The notes under the pieces: generated by a model
Told to the model about the DNA's origin: nothing
Databases searched by the model: none
The model's input: the letters and a program-made list of their open reading frames with translations, nothing else
In this document: positions 742 to 64,000 of the stretch, piece by piece
How the letters are laid out: each line of letters opens with the position of its first letter
Numbering within the stretch: the first letter of the stretch is position 1
Assembly (NCBI GenBank): GCA_030390025.1
Contig: CM059446.1
Span: 13,950,001-14,014,000, forward strand
From: Squalus acanthias
Taxonomy: Eukaryota
Direction: 5' to 3'
Length of the DNA stretch: 64,000 bases
Position numbers and translations under genes: made by a program

Positions 742-1304
742 TTTTTATTCCTTTAAGGGATGTGGGCATCACTGGCATTTATTGCCCATCCCTAGTGACC
801 TTGAGAGGATGGTAGTGTGCCTTCTTCTTGAATCGCTGTTAGCTGTTCGATACAATGGCTTGCTAGGCCTCGTCATTGGTGAGGTACTGGTGTCACATGT
901 AGGCCAGACTGCCGTCTTTCAGATGAGACATTAAACCGAGGCCCCATCTGCTCTCTCAGGTGGACATAAAAGATCCCATGGCATTATTTCGAAGAAGAGC
1001 AGGGGAGTTAACCCCAGTGTCCTGGCCAATATTTATCCCTCAATCAACATCACAAAAACAAATTATCTGGTCATTATCACATTGCTGTTTGTGGGACCTT
1101 CCTGTGCACAATTGACTGCCGCATTTCCCACATTACAACAGTGACTACACTTCAAAAGTACTTCATTGGCTGTAAAGCACTTTGGAACGTCCGGTGGTTG
1201 TGAAAGGTGCTATATAAATGCAGGTCTTTCTTTTCGTTTCAGTGTCCGCCCTTAAAGAATATTAGTTTTTAAGGCAATCCAACAGTTTTCATGGGCACTT
1301 TTAC
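742..1304 (-). mobile_element. Shark tRNA-SINE-like element (minus strand) split by a DeuSINE insertion
   Basis: 742-910 (gatgtgggcatc..atttattgcccatccct..tcacatgtaggccagac) is the reverse complement of the tail seen at 37310-37430. 1240-1304 (cttaaagaatattag..caatccaacagttttcatgggcacttttac) resembles the continuation of this family as I recall it. Confidence 0.55.
911..1235 (+). mobile_element. DeuSINE (SacSINE1/AmnSINE1-like), 5'-truncated
   Basis: gatgagacattaaaccgaggcccc..aaagatcccatggca..gtcctggccaatatttatccctc..aaaggtgctatataaatgcaggtctttctttt; aligns by eye to the full copy at 17704. Confidence 0.9.
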
Positions 1305-8614: not shown

Positions 8615-8988
8615 AATGAGCATCTTATCAAGTCTTCAGGACATCCTAAAACATTTTACATCCAAAGAATTGCTTTTGAAGTGCAGTCAGGTTGTCATGT
8701 AGGCAAAGATGGCAGCCAATTTACACACAGCAAGATCCCGCAAACAACAAATGAATGACTGACCAGTTAACCTGTTTTGGGCAGTTATGGTTGATGGAGA
8801 AATGTTGGCCAGGACATCAGGCAAATTCCTTGCTCATTTCTGAAATACTGCATGGGATCTTTCACATTCACTTAACCAGACCGACGGGACCTTGGCTTAA
8901 TGTCTCATCTAAAATACAGCACCTCTGATAATACAGCCCTCTCTCATTACTGCAATGAAGTGTCAGTCTAGATTTTGTGCTCAAATCC
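8615..8988 (-). mobile_element. DeuSINE, diverged copy
   Basis: Reverse-complement match to the SINE body (ttttgaagtgcagtc..ggcagccaattt..tgggatcttt..gtgtcagtctagattttgtgctcaa). Confidence 0.8.
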
Positions 8989-17703: not shown

Positions 17704-18153
17704 GTGTCAGTAGTGGCTCAGTGGGTAGCACTCTCGCCTCTTAGTCAGAAGGTTGTGGGTTCAAGTTCCACTCCAGAGACCTGAGCACAAAATCTAGGCT
17801 GACACTCCAGTGCAGTACTGAGGGAGTGCTACACTGTCAGAGATGCCGTCTTTTGGATGAGACGTTAAACCAAGGCCCCGTCTGCCCTCTCAGGTGAACG
17901 TAAAAGATCCCACATAGCACTGTGTCGAAGAAGAGCAGGGGACTTCTCCCGAGTATCCTGGCCAATATTTATCCCTCAACCAACATCACTAAAAAACTGA
18001 CTATCTGGTCATTGCTGTTTGCGAGACCTTGCTGTGCATAAATTGACTGCTGCATTTCCTACATTACAACAGTGACTACACTTCAAAAGTACTTCATTGG
18101 CTGTAAAGCGCTTTGGGACATCCTGAGATCGTGAAAGTCACAAGTCTTTCTTT
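17704..18153 (+). mobile_element. Full-length DeuSINE with tRNA-derived Pol III head
   Basis: A-box TGGCTCAGTGG (~17714), B-box GGTTCAAGTTCC (~17758), Deu-like core, and 3' tail ..caagtctttcttt. Confidence 0.92.
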
Positions 18154-19541
18154 AAAATACAGAAGGGAAATCCAAGCAGTGTGACTTCTCAGTAAGGTAT
18201 GGTTTATCAGATGAATAGTATGAATGCCCAGTTTTGGTTGTGTCTGCATATACAAATCAGCCATTTGGAAAAGCAAACATTTGATGAAAATTATAGAAAA
18301 TGTGGCAGAGACAGAAAAGTGAAGCCACAAAATGACTGCTGGTCATATTAATGGTTGAATGTGTGGCATATTAGTATAACATTCCTCTATTCTCCATTTT
18401 CATAGAGGTGTTAAACCATTTATCTTAAATGGATTAATGCCTCGGTTAAAATAGCGGAACCAAGCAGTGATCTGCTAACAATTTCTAGACTAGACAGAAA
18501 GAGAAACAGATGGAGAGAGAAATCGAAAGATCATGGAATCAGAGAGGAAGCAAAGGCAGAGGAAGAATAAGCAAAGAAGTTGCAAAGATCGACAGAAATA
18601 AATAAAAACAATTACAAGGCAAAAATAATAATCGGGAGAAAAGAAAAAGATAAAATAAAGAAATATAAAATAAATGGTCCTGGTGCCTTTTCTTTGACTA
18701 TGTTGGGGGGGGAAGAAGTTCAAGTCTCAAAATTGCTAGTGAAATTCTTTGGACAATATGTAAATATGCATGTTACCAATAAAATCAATTTGTTAATGTG
18801 TTTATGATAATATACCTAAGAACGTATATAGGAACTTGAGAGATATGTCAGAGAACCCCATCCTAACTCCTTCCTTCCATATCCCTGTCCAGGCAATTGG
18901 CTCCTTTGAACAGTTTATGTAGTATATTTTATCCAGTATATGTTTCTGACAAGTGCCCTAATGGATTCGGGCAGTTGTACATATGCAACAAATCATGCTG
19001 AGGTGGGAATTTTGGATGCACACATCTGGTTGGCAATTTGAAAGCGGATTAGGCAAATGTTGTTATCTTTTAAAATGGGCATGGCATCGCTACTTAGTGT
19101 CTCACCAGAGCACTAAAGTCACTGTGACCATACCTCAACAGGAACATTCTGTCTTGTATACGTGTTAAATATGACTTTCAAATAGATAGAATAATGTGTT
19201 CTAAAAGTGACTTCAGTTAGCAGTGGTTGAGATTGATCTCTTTTTTCTCCTGGTGTCAGGGAAGAAAAAGAATACACAAAGCAGTCTAGAGAGAGTTTCA
19301 GGAGGCAGCCAGCTGGCCGTTATTTTTGGTGTTACGCCCTGATCAGAAACTAATCAGGCCCAGTTTGTTTGGCAAGTCCTGCATGTTTTTCAAGTGCAAG
19401 GTGTGCAAACGTACAATTTCACATCAGACAGTAAGAATCGTTTTTGTGGCCAGGTGTCAAGAGTAAATGAGACAGCAGTCAGCCAAGAGATTGCTGTTCA
19501 CACCTGACCTAATTGAGTAGGTTGATGCTCTGATCATGAAT

Positions 19542-19768
19542 GAAAGAGAAAGACTTGGATTTCTATAGTGCTTTTCACGACCTCAGGATGTCCTTATGTG
19601 CTTTATGAAGCCAATGAAGAACTTTTGAAGTGCAGTCACTGTTGTAATGTAGGAAACGCGGCAGCCAATTTACGCACAGCAAGGTCCCACAAACAAGCAA
19701 TGTGATAATAACCCGATAATCTGTTTTAGTGATGTTGTTGAGGGATAAATATCAGAGAACTCCCCTCC
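19542..19768 (-). mobile_element. DeuSINE 3' half
   Basis: gaaagacttggatttctatagtgcttttcacgacctcagga..agggataaatat. Confidence 0.88.
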
Positions 19769-20237: not shown

Positions 20238-22497
20238 TGAACTCGTAGAATGAACTAATACTCGGATTGCTTGACTAACAACAAAGAGCCTCTTTGATTT
20301 TGGTCTTAGAAGCCTGTCTTTGGAAGTCCCAGAAAGTTGTATAAGACCTGGCAGGGTTTTCCTGTAGAGACTTTAGATCCCTTGTTTTGATTGCCTGTTG
20401 CCATATTGAGACAGAAAACGGGACTCTGTAGACCTTTGCCGTATAACATTTCATTGCAAAGAACTTCTAAAGATTCACCACTCTTTTATTCTTTTGAAAC
20501 AGTTAATGTAATAAGTCATATACTGGGCTTTTAGCTTCTTCATGTGTCTTTCTGCTTTTCTGTAATTACCTTGTAAATAAATTTGACTGAATTTTGGTCT
20601 GAATGATACAGCCTGACAGTGTGGCATTTATCACCTTTCGGAGTGGATAGGATAACTTGGCGGGCAGTTCTGTGGTCTCTGGTACTTAAGACTGTGGTAA
20701 AAGTACAGTTGTTAGACCTGTGGCACACACATCACCATTCACATCTTATATAAGTTTGCAAGTTTCAGATCATTCGAAATGCCAGTCTTAAATAAAGTGC
20801 CTTTTTGCTGTAAGAACAAGTTAAAATTGTCGAGAGAAAAGCCCAAATTGCAACAGTCGCATCAAATTAATATCAGCTGATCAGCTCCATATGTCGTATC
20901 AAACCAACATATAGCCTTGGATTAAAATGTTTCTGAAATGTGCTTTTCAACTACTCCCACCAGCGTACAATACTCAAACCTTAATGTGACAAGGAAAGCT
21001 ATAATCTGGTCTATTTGACCAAACATGTTCACCTATATCAAAATAAGGAATGTATTAAAAAAAAGATATTGACATTTAAAGCCTATATAGATTGTTCCTC
21101 AATAGTTACTGCTTAAAAATGCATTCCATTCCTAGGACCTTTCTAGTGGCATTTTGGCTGATATATCTTGCTATCTGACTGGTGACATTTCATTGACTGA
21201 ATTGATGTGTTCAAGAAACGACTTTCATTATAAGCAACCTCATAGCCTTGATAAAATTCCATCTAGCAGGGTGAATGTTAGTTGCCACTATTACATTTTA
21301 TTTGTTAATCTCAACTGTGCCACAAATTATTTTTTGCTTATTTTGATGGTTTGACATATTATTAATATGACCAGAGGATGCTGCCCATTATAATGATCCA
21401 GGTTGAACACAAAGCAAATTTGGTTGTGCTTTCTGATGCTTTCCAGAGCAGGGCAGTTTCAAAAACAAAGATCAAACTGACGGAGCTGTCAGTTATTTTG
21501 CATTATCTACTGCACCTCTCTATTTTGATTAACCAACTGTAAAACAACCAGAGCTTTATGTTGTTGCATTCACATGAGGGCTGCTTACAAAGTGGCCGCA
21601 GTCTCGGCAGAAAGCTCATTTCAGGGCTCATCGGAAAATAAATTGTTGGTTGTCAGATTTATACTGCACTGCACCATGGGTCTTTTGTAGGCTGCCACGT
21701 TGGTATCCAGGCAGCAGTGCAGTGGCACGTAACCACACGAGCTTCCCCTGTTGTCGGAAAGAGATTCGGGTCAAACGACTACTAGTGTTATTCTAAGCTT
21801 TCACTTATATAGTGATATCACCATGAGAAACCTGTGACCAGAGATACAAGGTTCATATCAATAAAACCCCGGGAGTGGGAGGGGGAGGAGGTGCAGGACT
21901 GCCAGAATGTGGTTTACACCAAAATAAACCTTGTGGAAAAAAACAGAGCTGAAGATATCAACACAAATCTGGAGCATTTGGTCACTTGAGTAAACCTCAT
22001 GCTGTCTTAGAACCTTATATTTAAAAAGTGAAAGACAGATTGTGTATACATGTGTGTTACATTTTCTTCAAAGCACAAGGCAGTAATTCTACTGCCAAAA
22101 TTGTGCCTTTGGCATCCTGGATACACCAGTAGGTAAAGGTAGCATCAATTTGGTCAGCAGAGCCACAAGCAAGCTGGATGCATACATGCCAACTGTTTGA
22201 ATTTGACATGGAGAGTCAGTGTCACAGGGATTTGGTCCACGGATGAAAATCAGCCCGGACCATGCACCTCCCCAAGTGCCGCTCTCGAGCTCCTACCTGT
22301 TGCGTTTGACAGGGCTGTATAATGTGGGAGAGAATCCCTGTTCACAGCGGACAGCCCTGTCAATTCTTAATAGGGTCTCCAGCAGCGATTAAAGGAAGGT
22401 GGAGCGATAGGGGAGGAGGGTGTGGGGGTATTGTGAGCAGCACTTTTCGGAGGTGGAGAGGAGAAGAAATCCCAGGATCACTATCTGAAGAAAGGTG

Positions 22498-22724
22498 CCA
22501 TGATGCGGAGATGCCGGTGTTGGACTGGGGTGGACAAATGTGAGAAGTCACACAACACCAGGTTATAGTCCAACAGTTTTATTTGAAATCACAAGCTTTC
22601 GGAGCGCTGCTCCTTCGTCAGGTGAAGTCCTGACTTCACCTGACGAAGGAGCAGCGCTCCGAAAGCTTGTGATTTCAAATAAAACTGTTGGACTATAACC
22701 TGGTGTTGTGCGACTTCTCACATT
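22498..22724 (-). mobile_element. Palindromic Penelope-like mini-element, copy 1
   Basis: 95-bp inverted arms (22535-22629 / 22632-22726, 1 mismatch), ~37-nt unpaired tail, and 12-bp TSD TGAAGAAAGGTG (22486-22497, 22725-22736). Confidence 0.85.
22636..22672 (+). ncRNA. Minimal type I hammerhead ribozyme motif (mirror copy on - strand at 22589-22625)
   Basis: TCAC-CTGACGA-A-GGAGC-AGC-GCTCC-GAAAGCTT-GTGA: stem I TCAC/GTGA, core CUGANGA and GAAA, stem II GGAGC/GCTCC, palindromic AAGCTT in place of stem III. Confidence 0.75.
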
Positions 22725-23328
22725 TGAAGAAAGGTGGAGAGAGATAGAAATAACGAAAGAGATAGAGATGCAGACAGAGACAGAGAAAGCCATTAGCAAC
22801 AGTTGGTGGAGGGGAGGAAAGGAAAGAGTGCATGCCCTCAGATCCTCCTAAAAAATAAATGATACGCCTTCAACACCAACCACCCCCTTTCAGCCTTTCT
22901 TGCAATTAAAGCAAAGGAATATTGGGTATATCTACAGCTTACATTACAAGCCCATGTCCCAATGTGCTTTCAGTGCAATTACTTTTTTTCCACATGTCAT
23001 GGGGCCATTTTTGAGGCTGCATCAGTTTTTTTGGAGCTGATCAATCAGCTTTTGCTAGTTTTCTCGGTTGGCATGTATGTTACTGAGACATAACAATTTA
23101 CCCAGTGAAAGAAAGATTTTTAGTTCAAATAAAGTTGATATGTTCGTGGATAGATGTCACGATCATAGCTGAGCCAAATTCTGTGCTCGCCTGACTTATT
23201 TATATAGATGTACCTGTGACAGGAGTTGCTGGAAAGTGATCAGGTATGCAAAGAGTGACCGATTTTCCCTTCCCGCATACTTGAGACCTATTATAGAATC
23301 ATAGACGAGAAAATAACAAGGTCCATCT

Positions 23329-23464
23329 ACAAAGGCAAAATACTGCAGATACTGGAAATCTGAAATCTGAACAGAAAATGCTGCAAATACTCAGCAGGTC
23401 AGGCAGCATCTGTGGAGAGAGAAACAGAGTTGACGTTTCAGGTCGGTGACCTATCGTCAGAACT
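23329..23464 (-). mobile_element. Penelope-like terminal fragment (second family) starting with a hammerhead motif
   Basis: Minus strand AGTT-CTGACGA-T-AGGTC-ACC-GACCT-GAAACGTC-AACT then ctgtttctctctccacagatgctgcctgacctgctgag... TSD GGTC(C/T)ATCT at 23320-23328 and 23465-23473. Confidence 0.8.
23428..23464 (-). ncRNA. Minimal hammerhead ribozyme motif
   Basis: Stem I AGTT/AACT, core CUGACGA, stem II AGGTC/GACCT, GAAA, GUC cleavage triplet. Confidence 0.72.
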
Positions 23465-23897
23465 GGTCTATCTGGTTCACCTTCTAGCATCCTGGTAGTT
23501 GCATGATACACTGATCATGGAATTGTTGACTAATCATAGCAATCAATCTCTATTAATTAGTCTACAACAGACCCAAACATGACACGAGAAAAGCCCAGTG
23601 GTGGAGAGCTTTGGGAACCAGAGGTCCAAAGTCACCTTTTTCCTCTCAAGCATGCTCGCTTATCACGTCATGTCTCAAATTACTCAAACACTGCACCCCA
23701 AAATGTTATTTTCTGATTGGCATTTGAATGAATCAAAACAAACTGCTTCCACTGTCTCCCTAGGGAGTCTGACCACCCGCTCACAGAAATATTGTTTCCG
23801 CAGATTAATTTTGAATTTATTCCCTCCCCCCCACCACGTCAAGGGCAGGCGTGTCCTCTGGTTCTACTGTTCTGGACAAGGTGAAATAGCTTGTCAT

Positions 23898-24097: not shown

Positions 24098-24647
24098 TTG
24101 TCATGGTCCATACATTATCTCGTCCCTTTAGAATCCTAAACACAGCAATTATATGACCTCTCCACATTCTCTGCCCATTTCACCAGTCTATGTTCTCCTG
24201 AAGTCTGGATTATAGTAGCCATTTCCAGTTGTGGCCGGTTAAATTAGCATTGGCTGGTCTGTATGGCTCCATTGCTCACTGGATAAACTCGATAAGCCAT
24301 GTTTTTATGTTATTTTGTGATTGGGCGTCCTAATAATGCAGCATCAAATTACATTTATTATGGTTGAAAACAACTTTACGTTCAGCAGCTCCACCTTTGC
24401 TCACACAGTCCATCCTGCAGATGGATTTGTTCTCCAGTCTCACTCCAACAGATTGTGCTTAATTAAAACACTAAGGAGACATATTCAAACCAATACATCA
24501 TAGTACTTCCCTTCCTTCAAAGCAAATAAGCATTTGCACCTACCTATAACTGAATGGTTCCCTTACTATTTATTATTTACAACATTAGTAATCTTGTAGT
24601 ACAACATATCTATATTGTAATTTAGAATCTCTACTTCCTGAAATTAA

Positions 24648-25007
24648 GTGCACTCTCTGTTGTTATGTAGGGAAACACGGCAGCCAATTTGTGCATTGCA
24701 AGGTCCTACAAATATCAATGAGAGTAATAACTAGATCATCTTTTTTAGTAATGTTGATTGAGGGATAGTTATTAAGCAAGATACCGAGCGAGCTGCCCTT
24801 CTCGCCTTTGAATAGTGCTATGGGATCTTTTATGTTCACTTGAGGGGGCAGACGGGTTTTCGGTGTAACTTCTCATGTGAACATCTCCCTCAGTGTTGCA
24901 CTGAGGTGTCGGCCGAGATTATGCACTCAAGTCTCTGGAGTGAGACTTGAACCAACAACCTTCTGACTCAGAGGTAAGAGTGCCACCTCTAAGCCAAGGC
25001 TGACACC
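24648..25007 (-). mobile_element. DeuSINE (minus) including tRNA head
   Basis: gtagggaaacacggcagccaattt..cttgaaccaacaaccttctgactcagagg..aagccaaggctgacac. Confidence 0.85.
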
Positions 25008-25285
25008 TGCGGATATAAAAGATCCTGTGCTACTATTTCCAAAGAGCTGGGAGCTCTCCTAGTGTCCTGGCCAACATTCGTCCCTCAACAAACACCACCA
25101 AAACGAAGTAACAGATCGTTTTTCTCATTGCTATTTGTGGGACCTTAGTACAGGTAAATTGGCTGTCATGTTTGCCTACAAGACCATAGTGGCTACACTT
25201 CAAATCTCACTCATTGGCTGTGAAACACTTTGGGATGTCCTAAGATCGTGAAAGATGCTGTATAAATGCATATTCTTTCATTTTC
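25008..25285 (+). mobile_element. DeuSINE (plus), 5'-truncated, abutting the previous copy head-to-head
   Basis: ggatataaaagatcc..gtgtcctggccaac..tgtataaatgcatattctttc. Confidence 0.85.
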
Positions 25286-25888
25286 CTTTCTGTAAATGAC
25301 CAGAAATGCATAATTCTTACTGGATAGGTAGATTGTCTCTTATTATCCATTCCATGAGTAGTTGCAATAGTGATAACACATTCTCTGATGTGGTACTAAA
25401 GTAAACTAGGCATCTCTTATGCACATCATTTTCATGGCCCCATAGCTTCTGTAACAGATTGCAAGATCAGCTATATCTCAAAGCAAAAGACTCTATTTTT
25501 AATGTTTATTTACCCATGGGATCTTACTGTTCACTGTAACTTTGTTTCCTGCAGCAGCCCGTCTGCCCATAATACATGAAATTACCATTTTGGGGGATTG
25601 AGATCAGAGACAAAATATTCTTTTTATGCAAATCTGTTTTGGAAACCACTTAACACAGGCTGCTTGCTTTGTCTTGAAAATCACCAATATAAGGTAAATG
25701 TACTTGGAAGCATGTGCAAATGGAATTATTTCTAGTATCATTTGGGGGTTAAGGAAACCAACATTTTAATTTGATAGTTTTGTTCACTTGCGACTTCCTA
25801 TATCCCAGAACTTCAAAGGGAACAGGAAGTAAGTCGCACTTGGCCTCCTGCAGCTCTTTAGTTCTTCTGGCAGCATCTTAATAAGAAT

Positions 25889-26339
25889 AAAGAAAGACTT
25901 GCATTTATATAGCGCCTTTCATGACCACCGGACGTCCCAAAGCGCTTTACAGAGGTACTTTTTGAAGTGTAGTCACTGTTGTAATGTAGGAAACGTGGCA
26001 GCCTATTTGCGCACAGACAGCAATGTGATAATGACCAGATAATCCGTTTTTTTTTAGTGATGCTGATTGAGAGATAAATATTGGCCAGGACACCAGGGAT
26101 AACACCCCTGCTCTTCTTTGAAATAGTGCCATAGGATCTTTTACATCCACCTGAGAGAGCAGACAGGGCCTCGGTTTAACGTCTCATCTGAAAGACGGCA
26201 CCTCTGACAGTGCAGCACTCTCTCAGTACTGCACTGGAGTGACAGCCTGGATTTTTTGTGCTCAAGTCCCTGGAGTGGGAATTGAACCCACAACCTTCTG
26301 ACTCAGAGGCGAGGGTGTTACCAACTGAGCGCCGAACAC
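25889..26339 (-). mobile_element. Near full-length DeuSINE
   Basis: aaagaaagacttgcatttatatagcgcctttcatgaccaccggacg..gaacccacaaccttctgactcagaggcgagggtgttaccaactgagc. Confidence 0.92.
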
Positions 26340-28475: not shown

Positions 28476-28936
28476 GAAAGAGAAAGACAGAAAGAAAAGA
28501 AAGACTTGCATTTCTATAGCGCCTTTCACGACCTCAGGACGTCCCAAAGCGCTTTACAGCCAATGAAGTACTTTTTGAAGTGTAGTCACTGTTGTAATGT
28601 AGGAAATGCAGCAGCCAATTTGTACACAGCAAGCTCCCACAAACAGCAGCATGATAATGACCAGATAATCTGTTTTAGTGATGTTGATTGAGGGATAAAT
28701 ATTTGCCAGGACACTGGGGAGAACTCCCCTGCTCTTCATCAAAATAGTGCCATGGGATCTTTTACATCCACCTGAGAGTGCAGACGGGGCCTCGGTTGAA
28801 TGTCTCATCCAAAAGACGGCACCTCTGACAGTGCAGCACTCCCTCAGTACTGCACTGGAGTGTCAGTCTAGATTTTTGTGCTCAAGTCTCTGAAGTGGGG
28901 CTTGAACCCACAACCTTCTGACACAGAGGCAAAGTG
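28476..28936 (-). mobile_element. Near full-length DeuSINE
   Basis: (GAAA)n tail, then aagacttgcatttctatagcgcctttcacgacctcaggacg..cttgaacccacaaccttctgacacagaggc. Confidence 0.92.
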
Positions 28937-41877: not shown

Positions 41878-44084
41878 GAGAGGAGGGGAAGACTAGCACT
41901 GGAGAGAGGAGAGTGGAAGACTAGCACTGGAGAGAGGAGAGTGGAAGACTAGCACTGGAGAGAGGAGAGTGGAAGACTACCACTGGAGAGAGGAGAGTGG
42001 AAGACTAGCACTGGAGAGAGGAGGGTGGAAGACTAGCACTGGAGAGAGGAGGGTGGAAGACTAGCACTGGAGAGAGGAGGGTGGAAGACTAACACTGGAG
42101 AGAGGAGAGTGGAAGACTAACACTGGAGAGAGGAGGGTGGAAGACTAACACTGGAGAGAGGAGAGTGGAAGACTAACACTGGAGAGAGGAGAGTGGAAGA
42201 CTAACACTGGAGAGAGGAGAGTGGAAGACTAACACTGGAGAGAGGAGAGTGGAAGACTAACTGGAGAGAGGAGAGTGGAAGACTATCACTGGAGAGAGGA
42301 GAGTGGAAGACTAACACTGGAGAGAGGTGGGTGGAAGACTAGCACTGGAGAGAGGAATGGAAGACTTGCACTGGAGAGAGGAGAGTGGAAGACTATCACT
42401 GGAGAGAGGAGAGTGGAAGACTAACACTGGAGAGAGGAGAGTGGAAGACTAACACTGGAGAGAGGAGAGTGGAAGACTAACACTGGAGAGAGGAGGGTGG
42501 AAGACTAACACTGGAGAGAGGAGGGTGGAAGACTAACACTGGAGAGAGGCGAGGGGAAGACTAACACTGGAGAGAGGAGAGTGGAAGACTAACACTGGAG
42601 AGAGGAGAGTGGAAGACTAACTGGAGAGAGGAGAGTGGAAGACTAACACTGGAGAGAGGAGAGTGGAAGACTAGCACTGGAGAGAGGAGAGTGGAAGACT
42701 AACACTGGAGAGAGGAATGGAAGACTTGCACTGGAGAGAGGAGGGTGGAGACTAGCACTGGAGAGAGGAGAGTGGAAGACTAGCACTGGAGAGAGGAGAG
42801 TGGAAGACTAACACTGGAGAGAGGAATGGAAGACTTGCACTGGAGCGAGGAGGGTGGAGACTAGCACTGGAGAGAGGAGAGTGGAAGACTAACTGGAGAG
42901 AGGAGAGTGGAAGACTAACACCGGAGAGAGGAGAGTGGAAGACTAGCACTGGAGAGAGGAGAGTGGAAGACTGGCACTGGAGAGAGGAAAGTGGAAGACT
43001 AGCACTGGAGAGAGGAGAGTGGAAGACTAATACTGGAGAGAGGAGAGTGGAAGACTAGCCCTGGAGAGAGGAGAGTGGAAGACTAGCACTGGAGAGAGGA
43101 GAGTGGAAGACTAACACTGGGGAGAGGAGAGTGGAAGACTATCACTGGAGAGAGGAATGGAAGACTTGCACTGGAGAGAGGAGAGTGGAAGACTAGCACT
43201 GGAGAGAGGAGAGTGGAAGACTAACACTGGAGAAAGGAGAGTGGAAGTCTATCACTGGAGAGAGGAATGGAAGACTTGCACTGGAGAGAGGAGGGTGGAG
43301 ACTAACACTGGAGAGAGGAGAGTGGAAGACTAACACTGGACAGAGGAATGGAAGACTTGCACTGGAGAGAGGAGGGTGGAGACTAGCACTGGAGAGAGGA
43401 GAGTGGAAGACTAACACTGGAGAGAGGAGAGTGGAAGACTAGCACTGGAGAGAGGAGAGTGGAAGACTAACACTGGAGAGAGGAAGACTATCACTGGAGA
43501 GAGGAGAGTGGAAGACTAGCACTGGAGAGAGGAGAGTGGAAGACTAACACTGGAGAGAGGAGGGTGGAAGACTAGCACTGGGGAGAGGAGAGTGGAAGAC
43601 TAGCACTGGAGAGAGGAATGGAAGACTTGCACTGGAGAGAGGAGGGTGGAGACTAACACTGGAGAGAGGAGAGTGGAAGACTAACACTGGAGAGAGGAAT
43701 GGAAGACTGGCACTGGAGGGAGGAGAGGGGAAGACTAACACTGGAGAGAGGAGAGGGGAAGACTAGCACTGGAGAGAGGGGAGTGGAAGACTAACACTGG
43801 AGAGAGGAGAGTGGAAGACTAGCACTGGAGAGAGGAGAGTGGAAGACTTGCACTGGAGAGAGGAATGGAAGACTAGCACTGGAGAGAGGAATGGAAGACT
43901 AGCACTGGAGAGAGGAGAGTGGAAGACTTGCACTGGAGAGAGGAATGGAAGACTAACACTGGAGAGAGGAATGGAAGACTTACACTGGAGAGAGGAATGG
44001 AAGACTTGCACTGGAGAGAGGAGAGTGGAAGACTAATACTGGAAAGAGGAATGGAAGACTAGCACTGGAGAGAGGAGAGTGGAA
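41878..44084 (+). repeat. Purine-rich minisatellite, 28-bp unit, ~80 copies
   Basis: (CTGGAGAGAGGAGAGTGGAAGACTA[G/A]CA)n with 26- and 27-bp variant units. Confidence 0.98.
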
Positions 44085-53586: not shown

Positions 53587-54688
53587 TAAGTGAAGGCATG
53601 AATGTGCATGCAGATGCAGAAGCACGACTCACTTCCATACCATCCAGAACCACATAATGTAAAAGAACAGATGGATGAGACGGTTATTAAGCACAAGATA
53701 CCCTCACTGTTCCCCTCATGGCAATGCCTCCTCTCCCAGCATTCCACTGTCCCATATCAATAGCATCTTCACAAGGGGAATATCTGTAGAAACCTGGGTG
53801 GAATGAAACTGTGAATGCGTCAGTGGCCTGTCTAAATCTTTGTGTTCTTTGCAAAAGAGATGCATGTGCACAAAGCAAAGTGGTGCCACAAGTGGAGGAA
53901 CGGCAAGCATCAAGCCCAAATAGACATGAGGGGGATGCTCGACAACTCATCAGCAGGGAGGCAGCGGGAGATGGAGAGGTAGGAGGAGAGCTGTCAGGTT
54001 CAGGTTGGTAATGGGATGTATCTCTTACAGTACTGTAAGTGTTTGCTGTCTTCAGACATTCGGATGACTTGAAAGGCCTCCTATTATTGCTCAGTCACAT
54101 CTTCTCATTTGCAACTCAGAGTGCTTCCTCCTAAAATTCATGTCTCTGTATCCCTGACAGGTGCTGAACACTAACAGAAAGAAATATCTGATGAGCTGCT
54201 GGCACCTCCAGAGAGCATCTTCCTGTACCTGATTCACTCATTCCACGAGGACACCTTACATCTTGAAGCACCAGCCCAGATACACCCACTCAGGAGGAGG
54301 TGAAAAGTGAGACAGACTACATCATAGGGTGAATCACAAAGCATCAGTGAGTAAGAGGAGCTGGGAGGGAATAATGTGGAAGCAGTCATCTCTCCTCAAA
54401 GGGGGCAATAATAAATCCCCTCAGCTGAGGAACCCATGCACCAAAATGACAGGGGCACAGTGCGTAAAAAATCTATGATTCAGAAGCACTGATCACATAC
54501 AGGCTCTGCATGATCAAGAGAGTCTCATCTTGTGTTGCAGACAGGGGATAAAGTTGAAGGGATCCAAAAACCGCATCGGCAACACCATGCAGGATGTGTG
54601 GCATGACGTGAAGAACACCTTGGTGAGTGTGGCAGTCCAGGAGATGAAGGTAGCATCAAGACATCAGGAATAGGTCCTAAGGACAACT

Positions 54689-54755
54689 CTGTTTCTCTCT
54701 CCACGGATGCTGCCTGGCCTGCTGAGTTTTTCCAGCGTTTTCTGTTGTTATTCCG
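54689..54755 (+). mobile_element. Short Penelope-like insert (family of 23329-23464)
   Basis: ctgtttctctctccacggatgctgcctggcctgctgagtttttccagcgttttctg, flanked by 10-bp TSD AAGGACAACT (54679-54688, 54756-54765). Confidence 0.8.
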
Positions 54756-55459
54756 AAGGACAACTGTTGCTTCTAGAGTGGCAGCAATGACTGCTTCTAC
54801 AGATGTGCTGAAGAACAATAGCTCAGGGTTTTCAGGACTTAGCTGGAACTATTTGGCCTGCTCTTGCACGCTTGTGGGCTGCAAGGAGTGGTTGCAGATG
54901 TCGCAATTTTTCATGGTAGTGACTGCATCAGTACAGCCTCCTCCAATGCCAGCACAGGAGGGAGCTTCTGATCTGGGCCTGGCAGGCACTGAACGCATAA
55001 GAGGCATGGCACTAGAGGCAGACCCTGCAAGGACATCAGCATTACTGAGACGAATGCTACCTCAGTCCTCAAGGGCTCCATCCGTACAGTTCCAGCTACA
55101 AACCTCACAATCCCCTGACGCTGAAGTAGCACCACACTGCAGTAACAGGGTAGGGTTATTTGTGAAGAGAGTTTTAGGCACAAAAGGTAGACACAAAAAT
55201 AAATCCGCTCAGCTGAGGAGCCTATGCACCAAAGACATAATGAAGGGACAAATTGAAAGTAAAGATGTACATACTTGGTGCGCTTTGTGTATGTGTGTTT
55301 TTCCAATGCAGGCCTCCAGTTATATATTTTACATGATGATTCACATTTGCAATTATCTTCTCCTCGAGAGGATATGAGAGATGTCACAGATTTAAAGATC
55401 GGTTATCTGAGAGGCAAGGGATCATAAAGAGCCTTTTGTGGTACGCAGATGCGGGACAC

Positions 55460-56590: not shown

Positions 56591-57085
56591 CTACTGATTA
56601 AACATAACTCTCTTTAAATTTTCTGCAAGATTCAATACCTTGAAATACTCAAATATTTGTAGTGGGAGTGACTTCTAGCCAATGCAATGCTACAAATTGT
56701 AAGCCAATATGATCTTTTACCTTCCCGACCTTTTCCCAACTGTGGGACATTGTATTGGCGCACCACCACCACCTTTATAGTGAAGGTGATTTGTAAGGAT
56801 AATAATTTGGCAGAAACTCAGGAGAAATCCCTGGGACGACTCGGTCATACCGTCAACCACCTTCATGCGCATGCTGTGTGACACACTTAAGGCAGTCGAC
56901 TAAGAGTTACAGTGGGGTCATAGGAAGGAAATCATGGCTGCCATTTGGGATGGAGTTTTGACAGAAGGGCTTTCAGTCCCATTTCCCTTACCAAACCTCT
57001 TCAGTCCTGTCTGAAAATGGGCTGTTTTTGCAAGGAAAATTCAGGCCCAGGAATCAGCCCACCATGCAGTGCATTTGCCCACTCA

Positions 57086-57136
57086 AGTGAGAAGTCGCAA
57101 CACCAGGTTATAGTCCAACAGTTTTATTTGAAATCA
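57086..57136 (-). mobile_element. Single truncated arm of the palindromic Penelope-like family
   Basis: gtgagaagtcgcaacaccaggttatagtccaacagttttatttgaaatca; CACTCA on both flanks (57080-57085, 57137-57142). Confidence 0.8.
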
Positions 57137-59029
57137 CACTCAGGCATCGGACAGGAACGTAAGAAAGAGATCTTTTTGCGAACAAATGCAAGTGAGGTCT
57201 GTCTGCACCTGAATTTGTTATATTTTGCTGGCACAAATGGAGGCCAGAATTGGGGTCCAGGTCTTCAACGGATGTTCTGTGTCACAATCACTTTGCAGCT
57301 TGCAACAGTTGGACAGTAAATGGATCCTCAGATTTCTTTCATCTTTGTTTGCAAAGAGGGTGGTTTTGATTAGGTAAAGAAAGATGAACGTAAGCACATC
57401 AGCTATGATTAGAAGCTCCATTCCCTCTCTCTCTCTCTCTACACCCCCAGCTGTTTTTGAGGAGTCTGGGGCAAGATTCATTTGCTGTCACTGATCTACG
57501 AACTGGGTCAGAGGTTAACAGAAGGTCAGGCTGTGACTGAAGCTGACACTTTGATCCCCTGTTGTCTGCTAGGAATCCAACAGGTGGCATGACATCACCA
57601 CACTTTAAAGAATATAGATGAGCGCTAACTTCATTTGCATGCAAAAGAGTGTAAAATACTTTTATACACACTTGAATCACCCAAAGCAATTCAAACCCCT
57701 TTGGCTTATTTCTAGATCAAACGAAGGATCCGCTTTCACAAATACAGAGATGTTATTTTGCTTTAGAGACGTGCTCACATCTCAAAATGGATTTTAAATT
57801 AAAGAAACGTGCATAGGACAGGTTTAGCTGCATTACATGTGAATTCCATCCTTCTGTGCGAAGTCATCAGATGTTTATCTTGAACCTTCAATGTTTTTTC
57901 TTGTTAACTCTTCTCATATCCTCTCACCATTTGGCTTTAATATCCTAAATGCTTTTTTAAGCTAACTCCTGTCTGCCCTGACTAATTTCCTCTCTAGCTG
58001 AGAGATCAGAGGCTTTCCTCACTGCTGTTCCTTTGCACCGGTGAAGCCCCTCGTAATCCTGCTGCTTGTCTACAATTAATCTTTCCAGTTGCCACATTAT
58101 TAACACTACCACCCACAGACAGAGAATGCCTGAGCTCCACTGGACATTAGCTCCTGCGGGAGAGGCAGAAATGTCAATCAAGCTCTGGTCAGAAAGCTCC
58201 CTGCTGTCAACATCAGAGATTTCATACCCTTCCGACTGCTGATCAAACATTTCTTTCCTGGAAGATTAATTCACAATCCCACCCATTTCCTCCCATATCC
58301 TCTCTCCTTTTAAGTTTATTCAATGACCCATCCTGTATCGAAGGAAGAGGCTCTGGTACCCTTTAAAAATTGAGCAAACCAAAGTAGAAATCCCGTGTGC
58401 TGTAAAATTTATTTTCCCTTTAAAGCTGATCAGATTAGGCATGACCAACAAGGGTTCTCTTTGATCGTATGCTATAGAAGTTCACACAGAAAAATAATCA
58501 CAAGACAAGGTTGATTTGGTTGACAGGACTACAGTAAACCTCCTTACAAGCTAATCGATTTTACTTTGATATCTTTTTGTTATTCTTTTCTCAATTGGCA
58601 CTAAGGCACTTTGCAAGCCACAAAAAGCAAACCTCCTGAGACCTAAGCATCTATGCTGTCATTCATCATTCCATTTGAAAACATTATGCACTAATGTGGA
58701 TAACATCCTGTGCTCCTTGAGTAAGCACTTCTCTATCCAACCTTGAGCCAAAAAGCATCACACGCTTACACACAAAGCATAAAGACAAGCCCTTTTCATT
58801 AATTCAGGTGGACATACGCCACACCCTATAGTGAGCAGAAGAGGGTGCTGTGTGCAGTGATTTGCATTTAAGACAAGTCAGGTCACAAAGTCTAATGAAG
58901 GGAAGCCATGAGGTACCACAATGGCCCCACCACCCCCTGTGCCAAATGTATCATATCTGCCAGGTGTTAGTAGTTCCCTTGTTACTTCATAAATAATTAA
59001 AGATTGTATTACAAAATAGAACACATATA

Positions 59030-61670: not shown

Positions 61671-62880
61671 AAGAAAAGATGTTGAACCAGATACCCAACT
61701 TCCTCACAGGGTACAAACATGAGCTCATTCAACTTTCTAAAGCAGGACGTATGCAGCAAGTTCACTTGGTCCCATTGTTTCTCGTCTTCATCAACAGTAC
61801 ACATTTAACATTTTAAAGACATAAGGGAATTTCTGATGCAATTGTAAGTGAGAGACATTATTACTTGGCACTGGAAATGCTAAAACTGCTGACTAAAATG
61901 GCTGGGCAAGGATTAACAAACACACTACCTGGAAAAAATGCAACTTCTAACCAGAAACCCAACATAAAACTGAAAGATGCTTAAGCCTAAGGTGGGTGCA
62001 ATACGAGCTAACTAAATGTTGTGCAGAGAAGGAAGACTTGGGGATTTCAACACTGTGATGAAGTTCTTTATTTGCAGAATACATATATAGAGTACAGTCG
62101 GTGATAAAAAAACATATAGAAAGTTACAGGGAAATTTGAGAACTATCAGCCAAGGAAAAAAATACCTGAGAGAGATGTTTTTAATTCAACAAAATAAGAA
62201 ATTGGGAAATTGATTACTAACTATATTATGGTGTTGTAGAACCCTGCAAACACTGTGATTTGATGAATAAAAGGAGTTGCATGATTTGTGCTTGAATTGT
62301 GTTTAGAGTCAGAAACAACAATGCCGGATAGAGGCTGCTGAGAGCTGGACCCCACGTTTAAGAACGTTGCCGAAATGCTATATGGTAAGAGCAGCTGAAG
62401 TTTCACAGTCTCAGATGAACCTAGCAAACACAAGTCCAAGCTAGTTACAGCTGATTTGGTTGACTACGGTTTTGTTTTTATAAAGAAACACCCTAAATTA
62501 TAAGACTCAGTGTCCAACATTTAGACAGGCAAGTATGGCTTAAATATAATTTTAATGTAAAAGTACGAGAAAAAAAAACTTCATTTATATAGTGATTTAT
62601 ATATCTCAAAAAACATCTCAAAGCATTTCACGTACAATCCAAATTAAATATCAAAATCAAGTTCTATAAAAATTTAAATATACTGTTCTGACTAAATGGC
62701 CAAAATGATGTTCATCCTAATATTGAAGAGGACCATCATGAACTGTCTATTTATGATCATTTGTTCACAGGAAGCAGAATCATTATCCTTAAAAATGTAA
62801 TGCCAGAGATGATGCGTTCATTATGGCCTTACTGGGACTGAAAAATAGCAATGGAAAATATCTCTCTCTCTATGAACCTT

Positions 62881-63143
62881 AATGAGAAGTCGCACAACAC
62901 CAGGTTATAGTCCAACAGATTTATTTAATTTTACAAGCTTTCGAAGCAGTTCGCTCCTTCGTCAGGTAAGTTAGGTAAATTGTGAATTCTGGGAGATTCT
63001 CTCATTGCTAACTTACCTGATGAAGGAGCGAACTGCTTCGAAAGCTTGTAAAATTAAATAAATCTGTTGGACTATAACCTGGTGTTGTGCGACTTCTCAT
63101 TTTTGTCCACCCCAGTCCAACGCCGGCATCTCCACATCATGAC
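62881..63143 (+). mobile_element. Palindromic Penelope-like mini-element, copy 2
   Basis: 94-bp inverted arms (62881-62974 / 63008-63101, 1 mismatch), 33-bp spacer, ~40-nt tail, and 13-bp TSD CTCTATGAACCTT (62868-62880, 63144-63156). Confidence 0.85.
63013..63051 (+). ncRNA. Minimal type I hammerhead ribozyme motif (mirror copy on - strand at 62931-62969)
   Basis: TTAC-CTGATGA-A-GGAGC-GAACT-GCTTC-GAAAGCTT-GTAA. Confidence 0.75.
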
Positions 63144-64000
63144 CTCTATGAACCTTCTCCATGCTGGAGATTGGTATCAAGTGCCTTCCACACTTTCCGT
63201 TCTCTGCACAGATGTTGAAGTTCCCCAGTCCTTTTCATCTAGCCGTATACTTCCTTGCCTATTACCTTTACCCTTTCCAGACAGTAACAACCCCAACCAC
63301 TTTCTTTTTGACTCGAGAATAATGTGCCCACAACGCTATTGTTCTCACTGGAATCAACCCCATAACTTCTCTCTTTTCTTGTGCTAGCTCAAGGATGCTC
63401 TTGTTAGGATGTAGAAAATTCATTCCAACCATATTGGGGTTAAAGGAGTGTCTGCACTAAGTGAGAGATGTTATATATTTGCTGACATTATAGATTATAT
63501 TCTGTGTGTGGTTTTTGTAATGTCCACTGCAAATTACAGATGAAGTAACCACAGCAACTCAAGAAGATTGAAAATCAGGAACCACCACCATCTCAAACAG
63601 AAGAAAAGACACAAAATGGCAGATTGATCAAACTTTTATAAAGCTGAAAGACTATGTTTAATAAAATGTGGCTTATAGTAAATGAATACAAGACCATACT
63701 AAAAGGGGGATCTAAAAAAAAGTTTGTAAGTAAACACTAACATAGCTTTATGGTTAACATACTTTCTTTACTAAGAGATGCAATCATATTGACACAATGC
63801 ATAGAAAAGAGTGAATCTTATGCTCTATCTAGCTGTTAAATTAGGTTATTCATATGTATCTGTTGAGTACAACGAGTTAGGACCAGTTCTGCGCTCAGTG
63901 TTTTAAGGCTCTGTGTATTACATGAAGCTTGGCTAGAAATAAAGACACCAAGTGGTGAAGAACCTGCTGAATGTGCTGAGACATCCAAAACCACCATTTA

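What the first reader, a model, noticed from the sequence alone, without database searches (positions are those of the whole stretch)
22486..22736. Palindromic mini-retroelement with a hammerhead ribozyme on each strand
Seen: a 227-bp non-coding insert with a 12-bp TSD, made of two 95-bp inverted arms (2-nt loop, one mismatch) plus a ~37-nt tail on one arm only. Each arm holds CUGACGA / stem II / GAAA with a palindromic AAGCUU in place of stem III. Established: Penelope-like elements carry minimal hammerheads thought to act as dimers, and often form an inverted terminal copy lacking the tail. Inference: this may be a minimal non-autonomous, retrozyme-like unit. Read-through from either strand gives a ~95-bp dsRNA hairpin that would mask the ribozyme and could feed Dicer/ADAR, so cleavage and self-silencing would compete. 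It could instead be an extreme 5' truncation of a full element.
Basis: partly seen in the sequence, partly recalled or inferred. Interest (0 to 1): 0.75.

Follow-up and report, generated by a model that had tools for sequence, protein, structure and literature searches.

The report
Mirror-image stub of a Penelope retrotransposon
This 227-base palindrome is a real insertion from a very abundant repeat family, most likely a dead-end stub left when a Penelope-like retrotransposon copied only the first ~130 bases of its RNA onto both cut DNA ends; the shape is already described, but the joints of such stubs may record where the element's RNA starts and where its predicted ribozyme cuts.

Summary
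The anatomy is real: 12-bp duplication, 37-nt tail, 94-nt arms with one mismatch, and one minimal type I hammerhead motif per strand. Two related organisms lack the insertion. It fits the published Penelope-like pattern of inverted pLTR, 30-40 nt tail and short duplication. A second palindrome in the window has the same arm ends but a 33-nt centre. Contigs of related runs show many joints (198; the 15 listed fold to 12 classes) and at least five centre variants at this position. That argues for repeated de novo formation, not a self-copying unit. It fails the retrozyme test: there are no same-strand tandem ribozymes. On either strand the antisense arm is made first, so the ribozyme is predicted never to fold in read-through RNA. 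The useful residue: arm 5' ends cluster at -7 (likely the RNA start) and at the predicted cut site. Two solo stubs begin at that site, and the deepest listed joint links the two positions. This hints at two-ended priming and cleavage in vivo. The parent ORF was not found. This scan has reported such elements often before (199 findings, at least 22 genomes).

The parts
22486..22497 (+). Left target-site duplication, 12 bp
   Evidence: Exact repeat of 22725-22736; the empty-site contigs of X6 and X7 align up to 22497
22498..22534 (-). 37-nt tail on one arm only (3' end of the sense copy, which is on the minus strand)
   Evidence: homologous tail in copy 2; many contigs leave the family at 22497-22500 into unlike flanks (table 7)
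22535..22628 (-). Tail-bearing arm (pLTR-like segment, 94 nt), sense on the minus strand
   Evidence: longer family members continue past 22628
22593..22621 (-). Minimal type I hammerhead core; predicted cut between 22593 and 22592
   Evidence: helix II probability 0.86 when arm plus tail are folded alone
22629..22632 (.). 4-nt junction, not family sequence at this position; possibly a short slippage copy of the neighbouring arm (inferred, may be chance)
   Evidence: loose ends at 22628/22633, G>C at 22632; centre variants
22633..22726 (+). Tail-less inverted arm (94 nt; last 2 nt shared with the right TSD)
   Evidence: 1 of 94 positions differs from the other arm, at a CpG
22640..22668 (+). 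Minimal type I hammerhead core; helix I 22636-22639 with 22669-22672, helix II 22648-22652 with 22656-22660; predicted cut after 22668
   Evidence: helix I C-G pair is U-A in copy 2
22725..22736 (+). Right target-site duplication, 12 bp
62868..63156 (+). Second palindromic copy, another subfamily: 13-bp TSD (62868-62880 / 63144-63156), arms 62881-62974 / 63008-63101, 33-nt centre, tail to 63143
57080..57142 (-). Solo tail-less stub of the same family whose 5' end lies at the predicted ribozyme cut (within 1 nt), with a possible 5-6 bp TSD (57080-57085 / 57137-57142)
   Evidence: a 6-bp match is not significant on its own

Best explanation
This is a TSD-flanked, head-to-head insertion of a high-copy hammerhead-bearing repeat, likely a dead-end stub of an endonuclease-bearing Penelope-like retrotransposon whose two arms were likely built anew at landing by priming from both nicked DNA strands. 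Steps: (1, inferred from the TSD) the element's protein nicks both target strands 12 nt apart. (2, inferred from the Anolis PLE biochemistry in PMC11167929) each 3' end primes reverse transcription inside the element RNA, one at the tail end and one at the pLTR end, which gives a tail on one arm only. (3, inferred) both cDNAs run off the RNA 5' end, 7 nt before the hammerhead core, a likely transcription start, or stop at the ribozyme cut if that RNA was cleaved. (4, inferred) the two cDNA ends are joined with a few added bases or by microhomology, not jumping to the rest of the element. (5, predicted by folding) any read-through RNA forms a 93-bp hairpin that masks the ribozyme, so the product is likely inert as a ribozyme and as a template.
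For: Shown: anatomy; empty site in organisms B and C, one contig each running from 22497 to 22758, where the 257-bp net gap equals 239 plus one 18-bp unit of the adjacent tandem repeat. Copy 2 has the same outer ends and symmetric arms ending at -9 (copy 1: -7) but a different centre and 13-15 of 94 differences, while each copy's own arms differ at 1 of 94. Junction diversity: 198 joints, the 15 listed folding to 12 classes, 11 of them asymmetric; centre variants at this position (exact, 1 shorter, 1 longer, one substitution, 5 shorter), the exact one being minor (depth 45.6 against 205 and 2755 in X1). The class with most summed X1+X5 depth among the 12 joins an arm ending at -7 to an arm ending at +29, the first base after the predicted cut, through 2 shared letters. 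Two solo stubs in the window, from two families, begin at their predicted cut within the TSD overlap. Literature: inverted pLTR + 31-bp tail + 8-10 bp TSD (PMC3846280); 30-40 bp tail and adjacent inverted truncated copy (PMC8557442); PLE protein cuts and extends both strands, starts RT at two internal sites flanking the tail, and is predicted to be a dimer (PMC11167929).
Against: No RT/GIY-YIG parent was found: 0 of 40 ORFs scanned hit Pfam and no genome is held, so PLE identity rests on non-coding hallmarks. Some junction classes have contig depth tens to about 200 times the flank depth, which copying of a palindromic master could also give; the tool warns that summed contig depth is no copy number. 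One listed class is symmetric at +37/+37, which fold-back explains more easily. The RNA start at -7 is inferred from end clustering and a recalled initiator consensus only. In Anolis no RNA reads ended at the hammerhead cut, and cleavage was dispensable in vitro. Only 15 of 198 joints were visible, and the cut-site pattern was noticed after the fact. Run X1 may be the assembly's own source.
Confidence: 0.6

Rival explanations
1. Same Penelope-like stub, but the mirror arm arises by self-priming: one cDNA (or an antisense template, as Arkhipova et al. proposed) folds back at its end and copies itself, and the endonuclease resolves the intermediate at the pLTR/tail border.
For: Published proposal for head-to-head PLE junctions (PMC3846280; resolution idea in PMC8557442). 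Arms within a copy are near identical (1 of 94). Short centres and one symmetric joint at +37/+37.
Against: 11 of the 12 visible joint classes are asymmetric, and the deepest pairs -7 with the predicted cut site, which two separately ended cDNAs explain directly. The 33-nt centre of copy 2 has no local source in the window (best other match 10 nt, or 12 of 13). Tail-less ends recur at a fixed place matching a second RT start.
Confidence: 0.28
2. One reading: a self-propagating, non-autonomous palindromic mini-element, whose whole hairpin RNA is transcribed and re-inserted as a unit by a PLE protein.
For: Unit-like size in both window copies (arms 94 nt). The exact centre has about 3 times the flank depth in X1, and a centre 5 nt shorter about 200 times (X1) and 80 times (X5). 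Non-autonomous PLE derivatives exist (PMC8557442; bioRxiv 2026.07.22.740005).
Against: Many different centres sit at the same position. One ribozyme per strand cannot release a monomer or circle. The ribozyme is predicted to be masked. Copying would need RT through a -181 kcal/mol hairpin. Fixed RNA ends plus microhomology would make the same joint recur without any master copy.
Confidence: 0.08
3. Assembly artefact, or two independent insertions that landed back to back or were homogenised later.
For: Long perfect palindromes can be mis-assembled (general knowledge). No listed contig piece spans the whole locus in organism A.
Against: One TSD bounds the whole unit, the tail is on one arm only and the arms differ at a CpG. 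A contig holds the exact centre (record 7). Relatives have an empty site. A second copy shows the same plan.
Confidence: 0.04

Closest known systems
EN+ Penelope-like element insertions with inverted pLTR, tail and TSD (Adineta Pen2a, PMC3846280; general scheme in PMC8557442; passages read)
   Same: Head-to-head inverted copy at the 5' end, 30-40 nt tail on one arm, short TSD bounding the whole unit, palindromic junction
   Different: No ORF and no direct second pLTR; TSD 12-13 bp against 8-10 bp in Adineta; both arms stop at the same place just 5' of the hammerhead
Minimal type I hammerheads of metazoan PLEs (Cervera and de la Pena 2014, PMC4209133; parts 1-2 of 4 read)
   Same: 4-bp helix I, unpaired base between positions 9 and 10.1, G10.1-C11.1 pair, palindromic 15.2-16.2. 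The paper already reports pairs of motifs 100-700 bp apart on opposite strands and links them to truncated PLEs
   Different: Helix II is 5 bp (7-8 bp in Schistosoma); the cores are only 18 nt apart; the predicted cleavage triplet ends in U; activity untested here
Poseidon PLE of Anolis (PAc), Frangieh et al. 2024, PMC11167929 (parts 1-2 of 4 read)
   Same: Hammerhead upstream of two internal RT start sites bounding the tail; similar spacing (here 95-96 nt from cut to tail end, 56-58 nt to the tail-less end; PAc start sites 85-92 nt past its cut)
   Different: PAc's ORF starts at stem II, and no such ATG is seen here; PAc cut AT-rich sites; that paper saw no RNA ends at the cut site and in the parts read proposed no model for inverted copies
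Animal non-LTR retrozymes (PMC7229834 passages; bioRxiv 10.64898/2026.07.22.740005 parts 1-3 of 5)
   Same: Non-coding, 150-450 bp scale, type I hammerhead, PLE pLTR ancestry
   Different: Retrozymes are direct tandem repeats with at least two same-strand ribozymes that release monomers and circles; this unit is inverted, with one ribozyme per strand
L1 twin priming (Ostertag and Kazazian 2001; recalled, not read)
   Same: Both nicked target strands prime cDNA synthesis and the two cDNAs are joined, giving a 5' inversion inside one TSD
   Different: L1 inverts a different part of the RNA and primes at poly(A); here the same segment appears twice and the ends are fixed

Membership tests
EN+ Penelope-like element insertion | Inverted 5'-truncated pLTR copy adjacent to the 5' end | tested here: met
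   definition
EN+ Penelope-like element insertion | 30-40 nt tail at one end only | tested here: met
   37 nt in copy 1, about 42 nt in copy 2
EN+ Penelope-like element insertion | Short TSD and an empty orthologous site | tested here: met
   12 bp; empty site in X6 and X7
EN+ Penelope-like element insertion | Minimal hammerhead in the pLTR | tested here: met
   criteria
EN+ Penelope-like element insertion | Parent element encodes telomerase-like RT plus GIY-YIG endonuclease (also needed to name the clade) | not testable with these tools
   No genome held; 0 of 40 ORFs hit Pfam; no related loci in metagenome, viral or prokaryote collections
Minimal type I hammerhead ribozyme | Core CUGANGA / GAAA / UH with helices I and II | tested here: met
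   Helix I 4 of 4 and helix II 5 of 5 standard pairs; one compensatory change in helix I between copies 1 and 2; only two subfamilies compared
Minimal type I hammerhead ribozyme | Palindromic helix III allowing a dimer | tested here: inconclusive
   AAGCUU self-duplex -4.3 kcal/mol, but the two-molecule minimum-energy fold pairs through stem II instead
Minimal type I hammerhead ribozyme | Self-cleavage | not testable with these tools
   Only indirect: stub ends and one joint class at the predicted cut
Non-LTR retrozyme | Direct tandem units with at least two same-strand hammerheads | tested here: not met
   One core per strand; no tandem array over the element; definition
Non-LTR retrozyme | Expressed as monomeric linear or circular RNA | not testable with these tools
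   No run on record as RNA; contigs only
Self-propagating palindromic element (MITE-like unit) | One shared centre across dispersed copies | tested here: not met
   Centres of 4 and 33 nt in the window; at least five variants at the same position and 12 other classes; some classes recur, so partial amplification is not excluded

The most novel reading that the evidence does not exclude
These stubs are a dense fossil record of the PLE insertion reaction. A dimeric PLE protein primes from both target strands at two internal RNA sites and makes two 'strong-stop'-like cDNAs. The cDNA ends mark the RNA start (-7) and the hammerhead cut (+29), which would be genomic evidence that minimal PLE hammerheads cleave in the germ line.
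Probability: 0.3. Interest if true: 0.55.

Novelty: new member of a known kind. Interest (0 to 1): 0.25.

Why it matters
As an object it is ordinary: one of very many stubs of an abundant repeat. Its value is as a handle on two open points in PLE biology that the papers read here leave open: how inverted pLTRs with a one-sided tail form, and whether the weak minimal hammerheads cut in vivo. A genome-wide tally of arm ends would test both without bench work.

Tried and rejected
Own-genome search: no genome held, so no copy tally. Pattern scans of metagenome contigs, viral contigs (44) and prokaryote genomes (45): 0 hits each. Rfam: nothing at gathering score; the E-value scan gave only generic hairpin matches (e.g. 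mir-1597, 50 bits against a cut-off of 93), rejected as due to the palindrome. Pfam on 40 of the 42 ORFs of 100 aa or more (the two in the 28-bp tandem array left out): 0 hits, so neither a parent ORF nor a host gene was identified; whether the locus is intronic is unknown. No RNA holder listed; in the guessed-RNA run X10 no listed piece spans the centre; neither is evidence on expression or editing. Presence of the insertion in a second individual (X5) is suggested by a contig starting at 22702, but it falls short of the tool's 31-letter bridging rule. A TATA box upstream of -7 appeared in one run's loose-end consensus but not in the others, so it is not used. Source of copy 2's 33-nt centre: none in the window. 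Lunse et al. 2017 was not held; its dimer result is taken from a review passage (PMC6765202). PMC13343379 has no Penelope content. PMC2377424 passages show an internal PLE promoter in Drosophila but nothing on this family. Earlier-findings search by sequence gave nothing. Supplements of the papers were not read, and those of the bioRxiv preprint are closed; they may list this family.

Full report
Observation. The element is as described. A 12-bp direct repeat (22486-22497, 22725-22736) bounds a 227-bp insert. The insert holds a 37-nt tail (22498-22534) and two inverted arms that the repeat finder gives as 95 nt with a 2-nt gap and one mismatch (22550, a CpG site). The RNA hairpin is -181.5 kcal/mol, z -27, with 0 of 200 shuffles as stable. 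Two refinements: the last 2 nt of the right arm are also the first 2 nt of the right duplication; and longer family members continue with other sequence beyond 22628 and before 22633 in all 4 runs laid (table 7), so the family-derived arms are 94 nt and the joint is 4 nt. No Rfam family scores at threshold. The host looks like a cartilaginous fish; that label is recalled from shark repeats and echoed by earlier notes on this genome, and I did not test it.

The ribozyme motif. Each strand has one core: CUGACGA, an unpaired A, a 5-bp helix II, GAAA, GC, UU, with a 4-bp helix I. This matches the traits of minimal PLE hammerheads in PMC4209133 (parts 1-2 of 4 read): an extra base between positions 9 and 10.1, G10.1-C11.1, and a palindromic 15.2-16.2. 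That paper also reports pairs of motifs 100-700 bp apart on opposite strands and attributes them to truncated PLEs. It found no cleavage for a single motif and low cleavage for dimers. Between the window's two subfamilies, helix I shows one compensatory change (C-G to U-A) and helix II keeps its pairs with one G-U. This is two sequences only. The AAGCUU self-duplex is worth -4.3 kcal/mol, and the two-molecule minimum-energy fold does not use it, so the active dimer is not shown.

It is a real, lineage-limited insertion of a very abundant family. In organisms B and C one contig each runs from 22497 to 22758 (records 17 and 24). The net gap of 257 bp equals insert plus one duplication (239) plus 18, the period of the tandem repeat at 22740-22786. 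Summed contig depth over the arms is 0.8-4.0 million in X1 against 13-14 on the flanks. That is not a copy number, but it marks a high-copy repeat. X1 may be the assembly's own source.

Is the palindrome a unit? The window holds a second palindrome (62881-63143, 13-bp duplication) with the same plan. Its arms differ from copy 1 at 13-15 of 94 positions but from each other at 1 of 94, and its centre is 33 nt. One search reported 198 joints, of which 15 were listed; these fold to 12 classes once mirror images are merged, and 11 of the 12 are asymmetric. At this copy's own centre, searches show at least five variants: exact (depth 45.6 in X1), one base shorter (205 in X1, 161 in X5), one base longer (20), one substitution (28 in X1, 22 in X5) and five bases shorter (2755 in X1, 1510 in X5, 140 in X6). 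One search listed 32 of 723 pieces, and none meets the 31-letter bridging rule on a 60-nt stretch. So junctions are neither unique nor uniform. They are diverse but recurrent, as expected if RNA 5' ends are fixed and joined with a few shared or added bases. Against this, amplification of some palindromic masters would also give recurrent joints, and I could not test linkage between joint and arm haplotype.

Where the arms end. Relative to the first C of the core, both arms of copy 1 stop at -7 and the symmetric part of copy 2 at -9; one arm of copy 2 may extend into its centre. The class with most summed X1+X5 depth among the 12 joins -7 to +29 through two shared letters, and +29 is the first base after the predicted cut (X1 605, X5 972, X7 63). 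A solo stub of this family (57086-57137) begins at that cut within 1 nt. A solo stub of a second hammerhead-bearing family (54684-54746, 10-bp duplication) begins at its own predicted cut within the overlap with its duplication. These patterns were seen after the fact, on few loci and 15 of 198 joints. Other classes end elsewhere, and one is symmetric at +37/+37.

Mechanism. PMC11167929 (parts 1-2 of 4 read) shows that an Anolis PLE protein cuts and extends both target strands and starts reverse transcription at two internal RNA sites that bound the tail; it is also predicted to be a dimer. Applied here (inference): two nicks 12 nt apart prime at the tail end and at the pLTR end, both cDNAs run to the RNA 5' end or to the ribozyme cut, and their ends are joined. 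This gives one duplication, a tail on one arm and a variable centre at a fixed place. The published rival is self-priming (PMC3846280, passages) with endonuclease resolution (PMC8557442, passages). Identical arms and symmetric joints fit it, and I leave it at 0.28. The same Anolis paper found cleavage dispensable in vitro and no RNA ends at the cut, which weighs against the in vivo cleavage reading. That the element is a PLE-derived stub made at insertion, by either route, I put at about 0.9.

Fate of the RNA. The arms are head to head, so on either strand the antisense arm is transcribed first and pairing starts before the core emerges. Predicted helix II probability is about 1e-17 to 1e-18 for the five plus-strand prefixes tested and for the whole minus strand, against 0.86 for the tailed arm alone and 0.08 for the tail-less arm alone; copy 2 gives 0.22 and 0.10. 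So cleavage and hairpin would not really compete in read-through RNA. One ribozyme per strand cannot release a monomer, which is the defining step of retrozymes (PMC7229834 passages; bioRxiv 2026.07.22.740005 parts 1-3 of 5). Whether the locus is transcribed, edited or diced is untested.

Novelty. The architecture is in print. In seven paper searches I found no listing that describes this family in sharks, applies twin priming to PLEs, or maps stub ends to the hammerhead cut. I saw only listings for most hits, the library lacks most subscription papers and repeat databases, and supplements were not read. The scan itself has 199 findings with these words in at least 22 genomes, and the 8 shown reach much the same verdict; these are unchecked notes, not independent support. 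My two-ended priming idea was noted before I read them. Verdict: a new member of a known kind, interest 0.25; the mechanistic reading has probability 0.3 and would merit 0.55.

Noticed in passing
window 23336-23467 (minus strand; core 23460-23432): A second, unrelated family with its own minimal hammerhead (CUGACGA-U, 5-bp stem II, GAAACGUC), single arm, 700 bp from the finding; no TSD of 5 bp or more found; outer boundaries approximate.
   Followed up: partly
window 54679-54765: Solo stub of that second family with a 10-bp TSD; its 5' end falls at the family's predicted ribozyme cut, within a 4-5 nt overlap with the TSD.
   Followed up: partly
window 57080-57142: Solo tail-less stub of the main family starting at the predicted cut site, possible 5-6 bp TSD.
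   Followed up: yes
window 22498-22628 (minus): The tail pairs with a segment of the arm (9-bp stem around an inner hairpin); in folding predictions this frees the hammerhead helices in copy 1 (0.86 with tail, 0.08 without), much less in copy 2 (0.22 against 0.10).
   Followed up: partly
window 62975-63007: 33-nt centre of the second palindrome has no source elsewhere in the window; it may be filler or one arm's longer parental sequence.
   Followed up: partly
window 41878-44084: 2.2-kb purine-rich tandem array, period 28, about 80 copies, with extreme GC and AT skew.
   Followed up: no
window 910-1243, 8619-8988, 17704-18137, 19538-19752, 24646-25293, 25883-26330, 28487-28936 and others: Other dispersed repeats of 200-650 bp, 80-93% alike, in both orientations; not classified.
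   Followed up: no
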